From assembly GCA_963663035.1 (NCBI GenBank), contig OY760074.1:800001-864000 (forward strand): DNA of 64,000 nucleotides, read 5' to 3'. The DNA comes from Acidobacteriota bacterium (lineage in GTDB: Bacteria; Acidobacteriota; UBA6911; RPQK01; JADFOI01). This document shows, piece by piece, positions 41,199 to 44,774 of this stretch. The number at the start of each line of letters is the position of its first letter. Positions within the stretch are counted from its first letter, which is position 1. Under the pieces are notes generated by a model, which ran no database searches, was not told the origin of the DNA, and was given only the letters and a program-made list of their open reading frames with translations. The translations under genes and the position numbers were made by a program.

Positions 41199-41768
41199 TC
41201 AGGTGTCAGTTGTCAGCGGCCCCGTGCCGTTAGCCAGCTTTAAAGTGATATCTACCGACTGTGCATCACCCAAGTCAGTCAAGGACTGCTGTAGATCTTC
41301 CGCTGACAGATCGGGAGGGACCTGCAAGAGAGCCGTCATGGAAAAAAGAGGGGATCCACTGATCGGTGAGTTGTACACGGACGTCTTGATCTCGGCAATA
41401 TTGACACCCTTACCAGCAAGAAAGGCGGAGATCCCATGGATAATTCCCTGGTGATCCGCACCTGCCACCTCAAGAGCATAGGGGAGGTAGCCCTGGTAGG
41501 CGGGATTATCCATTTCCTGGACGGTGACGGTGAGAGTTTCGGATCCACAATCTTGCAGATATTCTAAGAGCTGGCTGACGGTCTCGCCGGGAGCTGATAC
41601 CAAAAAGAGCCCCACAAATTGGTCACCTAAACTTGCTGTCCGACTTTCCTCCACGTTGGCCGAAGTCGCAACAATGCCCTCAGTTATCTCTTTGACAATG
41701 CCTGGACGATCTTGGCCCACAACCGTTACCAGTATCTGTTGCTGCATGCTGCTGGGATTATACTTCAC
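41199..41768 (-). CDS. GcvR-like double-ACT protein
   Basis: VVGQDRPGIV and GADHQGII ACT motifs. Confidence 0.85.
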   Translation of the reverse strand: MKYNPSSMQQQILVTVVGQDRPGIVKEITEGIVATSANVEESRTASLGDQFVGLFLVSAPGETVSQLLEYLQDCGSETLTVTVQEMDNPAYQGYLPYALEVAGADHQGIIHGISAFLAGKGVNIAEIKTSVYNSPISGSPLFSMTALLQVPPDLSAEDLQQSLTDLGDAQSVDITLKLANGTGPLTTDT

Positions 41769-41871
41769 AGGACACCTGCAGCGCCTCTCTGAGAAGACCT
41801 ATACTAGTAAAGTCACCGGTACGTTGAAGAATAGAGAGCAGAAGAGAGAGGGAGAAGTTGAGGAGGGTGAA

Positions 41872-42036
41872 TTGAACCAGAGATTCTGTCCTAAATGTAA
41901 AAAGAATGTTAAGACTGAAAAGGTACCTCGAATCGCTGAAGACCTGGAGGATTCAGTGGTAGTAGAACTCGATATCATCTGCAAAGAGTGTGGTTCTCAT
42001 ATTACTTACCGTAGAATGAGGATGAGCTTGGACTGA
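41872..42036 (+). CDS. 54-aa Zn-finger protein
   Basis: GGAGG RBS, TTG start, CPKC...CKEC. Confidence 0.7.
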   Translation: MNQRFCPKCKKNVKTEKVPRIAEDLEDSVVVELDIICKECGSHITYRRMRMSLD

Positions 42037-42185
42037 ATTAAGGTGGCTGGTGACCTTGATATCGACGGTTTCATGCCCTACACAGGAACTTTTACTTGAG
42101 CTCAAAGTAGACTCCAGTTATGACCCCTTCCGCGACGACCCTCGCTTCCACGACCTGCTTCCATGAGAAGGCCCTTATTTGTCAA

Positions 42186-42487
42186 GACCGACTTGGCGGT
42201 CAAAAGTCCGGGACCGGGTGATTAAGCCAGCTGATGGGAGTTCGCTTAATCGATCCAGTGATGCTGATTTTGTTTGCCTTGCTTCCATCCGCACTCTTTT
42301 TCAGCCCTTGATTTGGACTGGGTGCATGTAAGGGTTCGTCAAACTGGGCGCTGCCATCTGCGGCTCGTTCTCTTCCGAAGGAAGGAACAGCAGGTCGTTC
42401 GCAGTCACCCGAACTGGGCATTTGGATCATTGAGGTTAACTCCATGGGCGGGTCACGTTCACCGGAATCCCTTCTGGGTTCAATCTT
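42186..42487 (-). ncRNA. Predicted bridge (seek) RNA
   Basis: Two internal-loop hairpins (42346-42410, 42272-42344) whose loop strands match the target and donor junctions; RNA boundaries approximate. Confidence 0.8.
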
Positions 42488-43570
42488 TTAGGCAGCCCCT
42501 TCCAGGTACTCTTGATTGTTGTACAGCGGTTCATAGGTCTCTCCTGTGACCCACAGATGGTGCAGCAGGACCGAGAGTTTACGAGCCACCGCCACCACGG
42601 CTCGCTTCTTGGCGCTTTTTCCTCCTCTGGAAGCAATCCTCTCCCCATAGCGTCGCAAGTCACAATCCGAGCCAAAAGGTCCCAGGATGTACTGGGAACT
42701 ACCGACCAGTAGTTTGCGAACGAATCGGTCGCCGGCTTTGGTAATCCTCAACTGAGGATCCCGATTCCCGGATTGGTCTTGTCTGGGAGTGAGCCCCAGA
42801 TACGCTCCCACCTGGCGACTTCTTCCAAACCGATGGGCATCCTCGAGGGTCAAAACAAAGGCCAGAGCTGTGATCGGTCCTACTCCTCGAACTTGCTGAA
42901 GGTTCTCGGTGTCCGGATACTTCTGCTGGCACAGTTGCTGAATCTGCCGATCGTATTGGCGGATCTGTGCGGTGAGCTGTTGGATCATCTCCAGCAGGGG
43001 CTCCAAAGCCATCTTCAGGCAACCCGGAATGTGGAGTTTGACCCGATGGGGAAAAGCCTCTGTGGAACAACTGGGCAGACGCTCCCCGAAGGCTTTCACA
43101 GATCCTCGGATAGGATTGACCAGCCGGGTTCGGGCTCTCACCAGCTCATCTCTAGCTTTAACCACCGCCAGGTCCGCTTGAGCGGCTTCGCCCCGATGCT
43201 GAATCGGATACAACAGCTCGGGATCCACTCTTCCTAAACGTCCCAGAAGCTCTCCATCCTTGCGGTCCGATTTCTTTCGGTTCTGGCTGATGAGTCGAAC
43301 CTGTCGGGGATTGGCCACGATTTCTTCGTGTCCTTGCTCCTTGGCTATCGCTTGCACCCACCGAGAGTGGGTTCCCGTTTCCAACACCACCCGCATTTTT
43401 GGCTGAGACTTGAAGAACCTTTCCATGGCTCGTCGTTGAGTCTTCACCCTACCTTCTTCCACTTTCTGTCCTGACTTGTCGATGATGCAGTAGTAGGAAA
43501 ATTTGTCTCCCAGGTCCAAACCCATCGTCAGTTCCGGAATCTGTGTGATCTCTTTGATAGAATCTTTCAT
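42488..43570 (-). CDS. IS110-family DEDD recombinase/transposase
   Basis: GLDLG, VLETG, KSDRKD (DEDD); GVGPITA, YLGL.P...QSG catalytic Ser; AAGGAG RBS. Confidence 0.95.
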   Translation of the reverse strand: MKDSIKEITQIPELTMGLDLGDKFSYYCIIDKSGQKVEEGRVKTQRRAMERFFKSQPKMRVVLETGTHSRWVQAIAKEQGHEEIVANPRQVRLISQNRKKSDRKDGELLGRLGRVDPELLYPIQHRGEAAQADLAVVKARDELVRARTRLVNPIRGSVKAFGERLPSCSTEAFPHRVKLHIPGCLKMALEPLLEMIQQLTAQIRQYDRQIQQLCQQKYPDTENLQQVRGVGPITALAFVLTLEDAHRFGRSRQVGAYLGLTPRQDQSGNRDPQLRITKAGDRFVRKLLVGSSQYILGPFGSDCDLRRYGERIASRGGKSAKKRAVVAVARKLSVLLHHLWVTGETYEPLYNNQEYLEGAA

Positions 43571-43732
43571 GGCCAAGCTCCTTTGCTAAAGAGTTAATAT
43601 TTTGCAGCCCAAGCTTTGGGACTGCGTTCCTCTTACTGCAGCTCATTTTAGAGACTGCCTCTGAGGAGTTTGGCCTTCTCATCCTTATCTGCTGCGGATG
43701 AACCTAGAGCAGTAGCTGTCGAATTATCCCAT

Positions 43733-44316
43733 CTATGTTTTTGCCCGCATGTCGGAGTGCTGCCCCATATGCATGATGATATCTACTGTAGTCTGCAATA
43801 TAAGGAATTGAAGCAGAGAAATGCCTGAGCCGCTCACGGGAAGAACAGTCTTAAGCGCGAGGAACATGGGAAACAACCGTAGACCGGGACATACCCAGAA
43901 GGCCGCGACGTTTGGGGTTCCGTTCATGTCTTCCTGCCTATGATGAAAATACGAGAATACATGATTCACCGCAAAAGCCATGATGCATACGGCAAAGCCA
44001 ATATCGCCCATGCCGAGAGCAGGCGCCTTGGCGCCAGTGAGGAATAACAGGAATATGAGGTGAACGGGCCCAAAAAAAACAGAAAATGCCAGGCAAGCAT
44101 CTTTTTTGTTTTCTCCATTGGCTCCACCGGTTGGTAGTTGACGAGCATACCTCCTGTGGAGAACTGCTTCAGATTTAAGGTCCTGCGCCAAGTGAAAAGC
44201 GTCATAATGAGACTCTGTACCCCGTAGATCCACAAGACATCTATGAGGCGCCAACTCTGCCACAAAGCAAAACCGATGGTCACAAGATTGGCAAGAAGGA
44301 GAGATAACACAGACAT
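43733..44316 (-). pseudogene. DUF6498-like membrane protein, frameshifted at an A8 run (44072-44079)
   Basis: SLLLANLV...WIY..QS in one frame continues as GPVHLIFL...NHVFSYF in another. Confidence 0.6.
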
Positions 44317-44476
44317 TAGGGAACACTATGGACCTGTCTGACGAAGACCGCAGTGATGCTAGTCACCACTGAGCCTAGGACGCAGTTGGGGCAGGATTCC
44401 TCCAACCTTTTCTACAGCTTCGATGTTTTCGATTGCCTCCAACCTGCTGCGGATGAATCTTCAGCAGTAGCCTCCC

Positions 44477-44774
44477 GATTTCTCTAATTTTTTATTTTCT
44501 ATTTTTGAGATTGGGACTCCTACCCATTCTCTGACACACAGGCACCGAGATAGACACTCTCCCCCCCCAAGTCAGTCTTCTTTTTAGGAGTCCCAAGGTG
44601 AGGTTTTGTTCTCCAGGGTGACACTGATTTCTCTAATTTTTTATTTTCTATTTTTGAGATTGGGACTCCTACCCATTCTCTGACACACAGGCACCGAGAT
44701 AGACACTCTCCCCCCCCAAGTCAGTCTTCTTTTTAGGAGTCCCAAGGTGAGGTTTTGTTCTCCAGGGTGACACT
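44477..44774. repeat. Exact 149-bp tandem duplication
   Basis: 44477-44625 = 44626-44774. Confidence 0.92.

What the first reader, a model, noticed from the sequence alone, without database searches (positions are those of the whole stretch)
42150..43695. IS1111-type bridge recombinase with a readable bridge RNA (target loop, donor loop, CT core, handshake bases)
Seen: intact DEDD/Ser recombinase, sub-terminal IRs and a 3' non-coding end of about 325 nt. On the minus strand, 42410-42346 folds as outer stem GGGUG-A-CUGC/GCAG-CGCCC and inner stem GUUC-CUUCC/GGAAG-A-GAAC. One loop strand, ACGACCUGCU (42398-42389), is identical 10/10 to the flank 42150-42159; the other, GCCGCAG-AU (42364-42356), is complementary 8/9 to the junction atctgctgc (43687-43695). 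A second hairpin (42344-42272) has loop strands ACCCUUACAU (7/10 to donor end atccttatct, 43681-43690) and AUGGAAG-CA (9/9 complementary to junction tgcttccat, 42156-42164). Established: IS110/IS1111 recombinases use such bispecific RNAs, and IS621 has a CT core with handshake dinucleotides. Inference: target ACGACCTG-CT-GCKGC, donor ATCCTTAT-CT-TCCAT, with AU and CA as post-exchange handshake bases. The class is known; this looks like a distinct, reprogrammable ortholog. An outward-facing TTGACA lies on the minus strand at 42180-42185.
Basis: partly seen in the sequence, partly recalled or inferred. Interest (0 to 1): 0.9.

Follow-up and report, generated by a model that had tools for sequence, protein, structure and literature searches.

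The report
Insertion sequence carrying its own guide RNA
This is a 1.5-kb mobile element of the known IS110/IS1111 kind whose own non-coding RNA spells out where it inserts, here the last codons of a repeated kinase gene family; it is a well-supported new example of a known mechanism.

Summary
The element is 1531 bp (42158-43688, minus strand) and has 4 copies in this genome. It carries an IS110-family DEDD/Ser transposase, 11-bp sub-terminal inverted repeats and a 330-nt 3' non-coding end.

About 18 relatives at 46-56% protein identity share the RNA scaffold but sit in different sites. Both strands of the first loop co-vary with each element's own flanks (0 of 20,000 permutations each). The stems co-vary too (10 of 18 pairs compensatory, 0 of 500 shuffles). 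Held-out relatives found with a covariance model mostly fit as well.

The second loop tracks the element's own ends, with less variation to test. The AG/CT core and the AU handshake are supported. The 'CA' handshake is not (13 of 36).

The target is the 3' end of paralogous Ser/Thr-kinase/TPR genes, not a REP.

Transcription, circle formation and reprogrammability are untested. Verdict: a real new member of a known kind, with moderate interest.

The parts
42158..43688 (-). Whole insertion sequence, 1531 bp, counting the core copy at the right end
   Evidence: Four copies share exactly these ends. Contigs of uninterrupted targets diverge from the window at 42159/42160.
42488..43570 (-). Transposase/recombinase gene, 360 aa from the ATG (an in-frame TTG lies at 43576)
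   Evidence: PF01548 and PF02371; NF033542 at 224 bits. D19, E64, D102 and D105 are invariant in 18 relatives. Motif GLTPRQDQSG at residues 259-268.
43672..43682 (-). Left sub-terminal inverted repeat ATGAGAAGGCC
   Evidence: Conserved with at most 2 substitutions in 27 of 35 related loci.
43683..43688 (-). Left terminal extension ATAAGG (left donor arm)
   Evidence: Most relatives have ATGGG here.
42163..42173 (-). Right sub-terminal inverted repeat GGCCTTCTCAT
42158..42162 (-). Right terminal extension GGA plus core AG (CT on the plus strand)
   Evidence: Relatives have GGA or AGA, then AG.
42262..42416 (-). Conserved guide-RNA region (covariance-model match, 128 bits)
42346..42410 (-). Target-binding hairpin: outer stem, internal loop, inner stem-loop
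   Evidence: z = -3.6. Outer stem: 6 of 9 pairs with compensatory changes. Inner stem: 3 of 4.
42389..42398 (-). Target loop, 5' strand ACGACCUGCU. It pairs with core plus 8 nt of the right flank (transposase-strand top strand).
   Evidence: 10/10 to 42150-42159. Co-varies with own flank, 0 of 20,000 permutations.
42356..42364 (-). Target loop, 3' strand GCCGC-AG-AU: 5 nt of left flank, core, and the first 2 nt of the left end
   Evidence: 8/9 here and 9/9 in relatives L019 and L021. Co-varies with own flank, 0 of 20,000 permutations.
42272..42344 (-). Donor-binding hairpin (second loop)
   Evidence: Present in the MFE fold, but z is only -0.67. The inner helix UGCAC/GUGCG is conserved. An outer stem of 3 or more pairs forms in 7 of 18 relatives.
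42326..42335 (-). Donor loop, 5' strand ACCCUUACAU, partly complementary to core plus left end
   Evidence: 7/10. CCUUA pairs with TAAGG here, where relatives have CCCA with TGGG. 22 of 20,000 permutations reach the own-element score.
42280..42288 (-). Donor loop, 3' strand AUGGAAG(CA), identical to the right end plus core
   Evidence: 9/9. The G/A position follows the right end in 18 of 18 elements. 0 of 20,000 permutations.
42180..42185 (-). Outward-facing TTGACA, 22 nt from the right end
   Evidence: TTGAC lies 21-22 nt from the end in 18 of 18 relatives.
42104..42157 (+). Host side 1: orphan tail of a kinase/TPR gene (...DPFRDDPRFHDL), with only 35 codons of open frame upstream
43689..43716 (+). 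Host side 2: core copy and the rest of the interrupted gene tail (..LLRMNLEQ, stop)

Best explanation
This is an IS1111-group member of the IS110 family, a 1531-bp insertion sequence. Its DEDD/Ser recombinase is aimed by an RNA made from the element's own 3' non-coding end.

The first hairpin of that RNA is an internal loop. Its 5' strand pairs with one DNA strand of the target (core plus 8 nt to the right). Its 3' strand pairs with the other DNA strand (5 nt to the left, the core, then 2 nt that match the element's left tip).

A second loop in the same way matches the element's abutted ends, presumably as an excised circle. The two DNAs are exchanged at a shared AG/CT dinucleotide.

The site it reads lies in the last codons (..DLL|RRMNLEP) of a paralogous Ser/Thr-kinase/TPR gene family.

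Shown here: element anatomy, copies, ends, empty sites, RNA structure conservation, and guide-flank co-variation.

Inferred by analogy with IS621 and ISEc11: that the region is transcribed, binds the recombinase, that a circle forms, and the chemistry of strand exchange.
For: 1. Protein. PF01548 and PF02371. NF033542 'IS110 family RNA-guided transposase', 224 bits against a cut-off of 140. D19/E64/D102/D105 are invariant in 18 relatives. A GL-P----SG motif is found by pattern in 16 of 18, and Ser is aligned in 17 of 18.

2. Mobility. There are four copies with identical ends and only 6 variable positions. Three encode identical proteins; the fourth is interrupted by another IS.

3. Empty sites. 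Unoccupied paralogous tails read ..GCCGC-AG-CAGGTC... In 4 of 4 sequencing runs, contigs follow the flank to 42159 and continue GCGGCGGATGAA.

4. Structure. 18 consensus pairs, 95.6% of cells paired against 86.4% when shuffled. 10 pairs have changes on both sides, and 0 of 500 shuffles reach this. Slid controls give 25-48% paired. G-U pairs occur on this strand only (UG in 16 of 19 at pair 127/169).

5. Target loop co-variation.
- 5' strand against own right flank: 6.6 matches versus 4.5 for other elements' flanks. The own flank ranks first in 13 of 18.
- 3' strand against own left flank: 4.8 versus 3.5. The own flank ranks first in 11 of 18.
- 0 of 20,000 permutations for each. The result is the same without the near-duplicate L019 (n = 17).
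- In 96%-identical relatives the guide reads AAGACC where the window has ACGACC. Their flanks read GGTCTT in 3 of 4 (L019, L020, L024; L021 has GGTCGT), and the window has GGTCGT.

6. Held-out relatives found by the covariance model. The right flank fits the 5' guide in 3 of 4 (8/9, 9/10, 8/9; L052 only 6/9). The left flank fits in 3 of 3.

7. Within this genome. The only two family sites with 8/8 right-arm match and a CT core are both occupied. The one empty site with an equal total has a CG core.

8. Donor loop. The 3' strand equals the right end, and its G/A position agrees in 18 of 18 elements compared. The AA core of L042 is mirrored in three of the four RNA strands (both target-loop strands and the donor 3' strand; the donor 5' strand does not follow it). 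The 5' strand follows variant left ends in WIN, L025, L039 and L047. Permutations reaching the own-element score: 0 and 22 of 20,000.

9. Order of matches. The top-strand match lies 5' of the bottom-strand match, as Siddiquee et al. describe for IS1111 elements (PMC11187229, section 9).
Against: - No direct evidence that the RNA is made or bound. RNA-library contigs cover the region, but they cannot prove transcription.
- No sigma-70-like promoter was found in the integrated element.
- Hairpin 2 is no more stable than shuffles (z = -0.67). An outer stem of 3 or more pairs forms in only 7 of 18 relatives.
- The donor 5' strand matches only 7/10, with mismatches at positions conserved across the family. 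It fails to follow the left-end variants of L033, L046 and L059.
- The right-end G/A switch needs only about 2 changes on the protein tree, and a single origin is not ruled out. Donor co-variation therefore rests on few independent events.
- All four resident copies sit at GCAGC where the RNA reads GCCGC, one mismatch.
- Copy C sits in a poorly matching site (right arm 6/8) and has a mutated right tip.
- In 3 of 18 relatives the right flank does not fit the 5' guide: L045, L046, and L047 (in L047 the match lies 10 nt further out).
- Permutation tests ignore relatedness among elements.
Confidence: 0.88

Rival explanations
1. Seeker-RNA-only model. Only the first hairpin is a functional guide, as in the 82-96-nt seekRNAs of ISEc11, ISPa11 and ISKpn4. 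The element's ends are recognised by the protein through the conserved sub-terminal repeats. The second 'donor loop' resembles the ends only because both are conserved.
For: - The sub-terminal repeat ATGAGAAGGCC and the tips are nearly invariant across relatives at 46-56% identity. This is what protein recognition predicts.
- Hairpin 2 has z = -0.67, and an outer stem forms in only 7 of 18 relatives.
- The donor 5' strand matches only 7/10, with conserved mismatches.
- The right-end switch may be one or two events.
- The predominant co-purified seekRNAs were short (PMC11187229, section 9).
Against: - Where the ends do vary, the RNA mostly follows. TAAGG/CCUUA (window clade), TGGT/ACCA (L025), TGAG/CUCA (L039), TGGA/UCCA (L047), GGA versus AGA in 18 of 18, and core AA in L042.
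- Permutations reaching the own-element score: 22 and 0 of 20,000.
- Durrant et al. report donor-binding nucleotides in IS1111 RNAs, often in a multi-loop (PMC11208160, section 12).
Confidence: 0.1
2. Chance or captured sequence. The loop-flank matches are coincidence, or a piece of target DNA picked up by imprecise excision, with no guiding role.
For: In a single copy, a 10-nt and a 9-nt match could in principle be a captured target fragment. The triplet-repeat nature of the site (GCAGCAGCAG) creates alternative registers.
Against: Relatives with unrelated targets carry their own flank sequences at the same two loop positions (0 of 20,000 permutations). Held-out elements do as well. The two matches lie on opposite strands of a loop closed by co-varying stems.
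Confidence: 0.01

Closest known systems
IS1111-family elements with a seekRNA: ISEc11, ISPa11, ISKpn4, ISPst6 (Siddiquee et al. 2024, PMC11187229; sections 6, 9 and 13 and passages read)
   Same: - Sub-terminal inverted repeats.
- The long non-coding region lies downstream of the transposase gene.
- GL-P----S(T)G motif.
- One RNA hairpin carries a top-strand match 5' of a bottom-strand match, and the two overlap at the insertion point.
   Different: - The protein is only about 25% identical to the IS4321/IS5075 transposases over about 280 residues (tblastn).
- It is 360 aa, against the 330-350 aa stated for the family.
- The covariance model of this clade's RNA finds nothing at E<=1 in loci of IS4321, IS1618, ISShdy1 or a Phenylobacterium element.
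- The target is a protein-coding motif.
- No experiment exists for this element.
IS621 bridge RNA (Durrant et al. 2024, PMC11208160; Hiraizumi et al. 2024, PMC11208158; passages and section 12 read)
   Same: - Two loops, each with two guide strands that read opposite DNA strands and overlap at a CT core.
- Two handshake bases in the target loop match the donor.
- DEDD plus Ser active-site residues.
   Different: - IS621 belongs to the IS110 group. Its RNA lies upstream of the gene, and the 5' loop strand pairs with the bottom strand, the reverse of this element.
- Protein similarity is confined to the C-terminal domain (E = 5e-7, 32 bits).
- The donor loop here is a weaker, partly mismatched match.
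- The donor-loop handshake is not supported.
ISEc21, an IS110-family element (Siddiquee et al. 2024, passage in section 12)
   Same: [quoted passage not shown]
   Different: It belongs to a different group, with an upstream RNA and a different target family. Here the target is the extreme 3' end of host kinase/TPR genes.
ISPpu9 and ISPpu10 of Pseudomonas putida (PMC12288879 and bioRxiv 10.64898/2026.03.19.712850; search-listing abstracts only)
   Same: IS110-family elements that insert into a repeated chromosomal sequence present in many copies.
   Different: Their targets are REP or intergenic repeats, not a coding gene tail.

Membership tests
IS110 family (DEDD transposases) | N-terminal DEDD (RuvC-like) domain and C-terminal Transposase_20 domain | tested here: met
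   PF01548 E = 4e-17 and PF02371 E = 7.5e-19. NF033542 at 224 bits against a cut-off of 140.
IS110 family (DEDD transposases) | Catalytic D, E, D, D and the Ser of an SG motif | tested here: met
   D19, E64, D102 and D105 are invariant in 18 relatives. S267-G268 are present, with Ser aligned in 17 of 18. Equivalence to IS621 D11/E60/D102/D105/S241 is inferred from the motifs, not from a full alignment.
IS1111 group | Sub-terminal inverted repeats of 7-17 bp (Durrant 2024, section 12; Siddiquee 2024, section 6) | tested here: met
   11-bp ATGAGAAGGCC / GGCCTTCTCAT, 6 nt and 5 nt inside the ends.
IS1111 group | Long non-coding region downstream of the transposase gene | tested here: met
   330 nt downstream against 118 nt upstream.
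IS1111 group | GL-P----S(T)G motif in the C-terminal domain | tested here: met
   GLTPRQDQSG at residues 259-268. The pattern is found in 16 of 18 relatives.
IS1111 group | Transposase length 330-350 aa | tested here: not met
   360 aa here. Relatives range from 342 to 366 aa. The deviation is small.
IS1111 group | Transposase clusters with IS1111-type proteins in a phylogeny | not tested
   Indirect evidence only. tblastn gives 25% identity to IS4321/IS5075 over residues 16-296. IS621 aligns only in the C-terminal domain. No tree with ISfinder references was built.
seekRNA / bridge RNA | Internal loop whose two strands match opposite strands of the target and overlap at the insertion point; top-strand match first in IS1111 | tested here: met
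   Order as in PMC11187229, section 9.
seekRNA / bridge RNA | Second loop matching the element's own joined ends (donor) | tested here: inconclusive
   The 3' strand matches 9/9 and follows the right end in 18 of 18 relatives compared. The 5' strand matches 7/10 and follows 4 of 7 variant left ends. An outer stem forms in 7 of 18.
seekRNA / bridge RNA | Core dinucleotide represented in the guide strands | tested here: met
   CU in the target 5' strand, AG in the target 3' strand and AG in the donor 3' strand. The donor 5' strand matches only one of the two core bases. L042, with core AA, carries UU/AA/AA in those three strands, while its donor 5' strand does not follow the core.
seekRNA / bridge RNA | Handshake bases (IS621-type) | tested here: inconclusive
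   Target loop: AU matches the left tip AT in most elements, and UU matches TT in L025. Donor loop: 13 of 36 positions match, and 3033 of 20,000 permutations do as well.
seekRNA / bridge RNA | The RNA is transcribed, binds the recombinase and is required for transposition | not testable with these tools
   Only contigs of RNA libraries cover the region.
Any Rfam family | Match to a curated covariance model | tested here: not met
   At E<=10, four matches on 41500-44500, none within the element and none near its gathering score.

The most novel reading that the evidence does not exclude
This Acidobacteriota-centred clade may be a separate bridge-RNA scaffold subfamily with a simple natural code: 8 + 2 + 5 nt for the target, and tips of 5-6 and 3 nt for the donor. 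Its recombinase would recombine any two DNAs carrying matching gene tails. If so, the many orphan kinase-gene tails in this genome are footprints of RNA-guided rearrangements between paralogous tails rather than simple decay. There are 12 such orphans among 21 tails, including all three occupied tails found by the pattern and a second orphan tail 750 bp from the window copy. On this reading the element reshapes a host gene family as well as inserting into it.
Probability: 0.12. Interest if true: 0.6.

Novelty: new member of a known kind. Interest (0 to 1): 0.35.

Why it matters
RNA-guided IS110/IS1111 recombinases are being developed as genome-editing tools, and natural diversity is the raw material for that work.

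This clade offers a compact example outside the usual Proteobacteria. About 18 relatives carry different targets on one conserved RNA scaffold. Their natural variation already shows which RNA positions read which DNA positions, and which do not, such as the donor-loop 'handshake'.

Biologically, it shows such an element aimed at a conserved coding motif at the very end of a paralogous kinase family. Insertion costs the protein only its last seven residues.

None of this changes the known mechanism.

Tried and rejected
- Rfam. No family matches the region.
- Promoter scan. No sigma-70-like site in 42050-43800.
- Junction promoter. TTGAC lies 21-22 nt from the right end in 18 of 18 relatives. 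At 15-20 nt spacing, however, the best -10-like hexamers score only 3-4 of 6, in both the circle and the integrated form. By my own reading of the ends, a hexamer formed only on joining has the A2 and T6 positions at 17-18 nt. That is weak, so a Pjunc-type promoter (known for ISEc11, as cited in PMC11187229) is neither shown nor excluded.
- Circle junction. Read laying found no joints, but all four runs are contigs, so this says nothing about circles. A depth profile from contigs cannot show expression.
- Hairpin next to TTGACA. A hairpin of 4 or more pairs abuts it in only 9 of 18 relatives, so it is not a family feature.
- Longer handshake. A 4-nt AUGG handshake was rejected. Positions 3-4 do not follow the variant left tips of the window clade or of L059.
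- Alternative register. Pairing GCCGCAG three bases further left was considered. It was rejected because 96%-identical relatives sit at GCCGC-AG exactly.
- Occupancy of orphan tails. 3 of 12 orphan tails are occupied against 0 of 9 intact genes. By my own estimate this is too few to be significant.
- Literature. A search for IS110 + Acidobacteri* + 'bridge RNA' found 0 papers. One preprint could not be fetched.
- Supplements. Supplementary tables of Durrant 2024 and Siddiquee 2024, which list predicted RNAs and targets for ISfinder elements, were not seen. They could already contain a close relative.
- Not used. Structure prediction, complex prediction and the large protein searches were judged unnecessary.
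Full report
OBSERVATION

Every string and coordinate in the finding is reproduced.
- Plus strand 42150-42159 reads ACGACCTGCT. The minus-strand RNA 42398-42389 reads the same ten letters.
- RNA 42364-42356 is GCCGCAGAU, against the reverse complement of 43687-43695, GCAGCAGAT (8/9).
- ACCCUUACAU (42335-42326) matches 43681-43690 at 7/10.
- AUGGAAGCA (42288-42280) is the exact reverse complement of 42156-42164.
- TTGACA lies at 42185-42180 on the minus strand.

The minus-strand ORF 42488-43570 (360 aa) is intact. It matches PF01548 and PF02371 and NF033542, 'IS110 family RNA-guided transposase', at 224 bits against a cut-off of 140.

Both hairpins appear in the minimum-energy fold of the whole 328-nt non-coding end. 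On its own, hairpin 1 is much more stable than shuffles (z = -3.6, 0 of 200). Hairpin 2 is not (z = -0.67, 44 of 200).

THE ELEMENT AND ITS COPIES

The window's genome is a single 3.59-Mb contig. It holds four copies plus 12 short matches to the right flank alone.

In transposase orientation every copy begins ATAAGG-ATGAGAAGGCC and ends GGCCTTCTCAT-GGA-AG. Each copy is 1531 bp. The four copies differ at six positions. Copy D carries an insertion of about 1.26 kb inside the transposase gene. The window copy alone carries four of the six differences, including 42355 next to the 3' guide. Copy C has a G-to-A change in its right tip.

Three copies encode identical proteins.

THE TARGET

The flanks belong to a repeat. 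Unoccupied members read ..TTCATCC-GCCGC-AG-CAGGTC..GGAAGCGAGGGTCGTCGCGG.

In all four sequencing runs laid on the region, contigs follow the window up to 42159 and then continue GCGGCGGATGAA. That is the uninterrupted site. The ends and the shared AG (CT on the plus strand) are therefore fixed independently of the RNA.

Read on the other strand, the repeat encodes ..DPLRDDPRF(T/Q)DLL(R/L)RMNLEP-stop. A pattern search gave 28 hits, of which I judge 21 to be real gene tails. Nine end open frames of 485-820 codons. Twelve are orphans with 7-96 codons upstream. One intact member is a 794-aa protein with a protein-kinase domain and TPR repeats.

The target is thus a coding motif at the extreme 3' end of a paralogous Ser/Thr-kinase/TPR family, not a REP element. 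The three occupied tails found by the pattern (copies A, B, D) are all orphans. Copy C sits in a diverged site.

RELATIVES

A scan of species-representative genomes found four full-length copies at 96-97% protein identity and one partial copy at 98%, in Acidobacteriota MAGs. It also found relatives near 52%.

A sample of 401 genomes of the phylum gave 26 with a match at E<=1e-40.

The sub-terminal repeat is found on both sides, with at most 2 substitutions, in 27 of 35 related loci. The tips are nearly constant: AG then ATGGG on the left in most, ATAAGG in the window clade, and GGA or AGA then AG on the right. The flanks differ from element to element.

The non-coding ends share a scaffold. 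It runs GGGYGACUGCG, variable strand, variable stem-loop, variable strand, AGAU.GCAGCRCCC. It then continues ..CCCA..AUGCAC, stem-loop, AGUGCG.AU(G/A)GAAGC.

STRUCTURE

RNAalifold on 19 sequences predicts the outer and inner stems of hairpin 1 and the inner helix of hairpin 2. Eleven of its 19 pairs carry compensatory changes.

The same structure without one lone pair was then counted.
- 95.6% of cells are paired, against 86.4% in shuffles.
- 10 of 18 pairs show changes on both sides.
- 0 of 500 shuffles reach either value.
- Slid controls give 25-48% paired.

Unconstrained folds of 18 relatives gave these results.
- Target-loop outer stem: 15 of 18.
- Target-loop inner stem: 17 of 18.
- Donor inner helix: 17 of 18.
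- Donor outer stem of 3 or more pairs: only 7 of 18.

The last result fits the remark of Durrant et al. that donor-binding nucleotides of IS1111 RNAs often lie in a multi-loop (PMC11208160, section 12).

GUIDE-FLANK CO-VARIATION

The strand just after GACUGCG is the reverse complement of core plus 7-10 nt of that element's own right flank. The strand just before GCAGC equals 4-8 nt of its left flank, the core and the first bases of the left tip.

Only the variable flank parts were scored, against all elements' flanks.

| Strand compared | Own | Others | Own flank ranks first | Permutations reaching own |
|---|---|---|---|---|
| Target 5' strand vs right flank (n = 18) | 6.6 | 4.5 | 13 of 18 | 0 of 20,000 |
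| Target 3' strand vs left flank (n = 18) | 4.8 | 3.5 | 11 of 18 | 0 of 20,000 |

Dropping the near-duplicate L019 changes nothing.

Exceptions on the 5' strand are L045, L046 and L047. In L047 the match lies 10 nt further out.

In the 96%-identical relatives the guide reads AAGACC where the window reads ACGACC. Their flanks read GGTCTT in three of four (L019, L020, L024), and the window has GGTCGT.

A covariance model built from the alignment finds the RNA in relatives that were not used to build it.
- The right flank fits the predicted guide in 3 of 4 (L052 does not).
- The left flank fits in 3 of 3.

Within the window's genome, the only two family sites with an 8/8 right arm and a CT core are both occupied. 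The one empty site of equal total has a CG core.

DONOR LOOP AND HANDSHAKES

The 3' strand AU(G/A)GAAG equals the right end. Its G/A position agrees with the right tip in all 18 elements compared (L033 has a further mismatch). L042, whose core is AA, carries the matching letters in both target strands and in this strand, but not in its donor 5' strand. On the protein tree the G/A switch needs only about two changes, so these are few events.

The 5' strand carries CCCA opposite the usual TGGG. It follows four of seven variant tips: CCUUA/TAAGG in the window clade, ACCA/TGGT, CUCA/TGAG and UCCA/TGGA. It does not follow in L033, L046 and L059. Conserved mismatches remain next to the core. With n = 17, 22 of 20,000 permutations reach the own-element score for the 5' strand, and 0 of 20,000 for the 3' strand.

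The two bases after the core in the target loop are AU in most elements, where the left tip starts AT. They are UU in L025, whose tip starts TT.

The two bases after AAG in the donor loop begin with a conserved C. They match the right flank at 13 of 36 positions, and 3033 of 20,000 permutations do as well.

COMPARISON WITH WHAT IS KNOWN

Siddiquee et al. (PMC11187229; sections 6, 9, 13 and passages read) define IS1111 elements by four features.
- Sub-terminal repeats.
- A downstream non-coding region.
- A GL-P----S(T)G motif.
- A seekRNA with the top-strand match 5' of the bottom-strand match.

All four are met here. The protein, at 360 aa, is slightly outside their 330-350 aa range.

Durrant et al. 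(PMC11208160) predicted bridge RNAs in the right end of 93% of ISfinder IS1111 elements. In IS621 the strand order is the reverse. Handshake guides are described by Hiraizumi et al. (PMC11208158; PMC13626964, abstract only).

The class and the mechanism are therefore in print. What is particular here:
- The protein is distant from annotated elements. Identity is at most 35.5% among the 25 rows shown for the plasmid collection and 25% to IS4321/IS5075. Only the C-terminal domain aligns to IS621 and ISCro4.
- The clade's RNA model does not detect the RNA ends of IS4321, IS1618, ISShdy1 or a Phenylobacterium element.
- The target is a coding gene tail. ISEc21, which targets IS3 transposase codons, is a precedent.

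UNEXPLAINED

- All four resident copies sit at GCAGC although the RNA reads GCCGC. Most empty sites, and the sites used by the 96% relatives, read GCCGC.
- TTGAC lies at a fixed 21-22 nt from the right end in 18 of 18 relatives, without a convincing -10.

VERDICT

This is a new, well-documented member of a known kind. Transcription, circle formation and reprogrammability remain untested.

Noticed in passing
L004:2530-3789 (own genome, copy D of the element): The fourth copy is interrupted inside the transposase gene by a second insertion sequence of about 1.26 kb. That element has terminal inverted repeats and a 346-aa ORF with integrase-core (rve, rve_3) and HTH_21 domains, so it looks IS3-like.
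   Followed up: partly
window 44441-44470 (+), and the genome-wide list: A second orphan gene tail (..NLLRMNLQQ, stop) lies about 750 bp beyond the element's left side. With the interrupted tail at 43689-43716 it brackets one small gene. Genome-wide, 12 of 21 kinase/TPR gene tails are orphans without a gene body, and several cluster at 66-90 kb next to copies B and C.
   Followed up: partly
window 42180-42185 (-), and the same place in 18 relatives: TTGAC(A) is conserved 21-22 nt from the right end in 18 of 18 relatives. No good -10 hexamer follows at 15-20 nt in either the circle or the integrated form. A GC-rich hairpin abuts it in 9 of 18.
   Followed up: partly
L026:2363-2485, L027:2307-2429, L028:2355-2477: In three Thermoplasmata MAG loci with 23-25% identical transposases, the clade's RNA model gives weak hits (16-20 bits, rough E = 2e-4 to 4e-3). 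The hits lie immediately upstream of the gene, not downstream. This would fit the idea that the RNA has moved between element ends.
   Followed up: no
L045 (non-coding end, position 22 after the stop codon): A 28-nt copy of the sequence just outside the right end also lies inside the element, right after the transposase stop. The right flank of this element does not fit its 5' guide.
   Followed up: no
L047 right flank: The 9-nt match to the 5' guide lies 10 nt further from the element end than in all other relatives.
   Followed up: no
window 42355, 42487, 42177-42178: The window copy differs from the other three copies at four positions. One of them, G instead of U, lies directly 3' of the target-loop guide.
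   Followed up: no
window 42150-42170 (+): Insertion replaces the last seven residues of the host protein (RRMNLEP) with a single Pro. A stop codon supplied by the element's inverted repeat follows (..HDLLP, stop).
   Followed up: no
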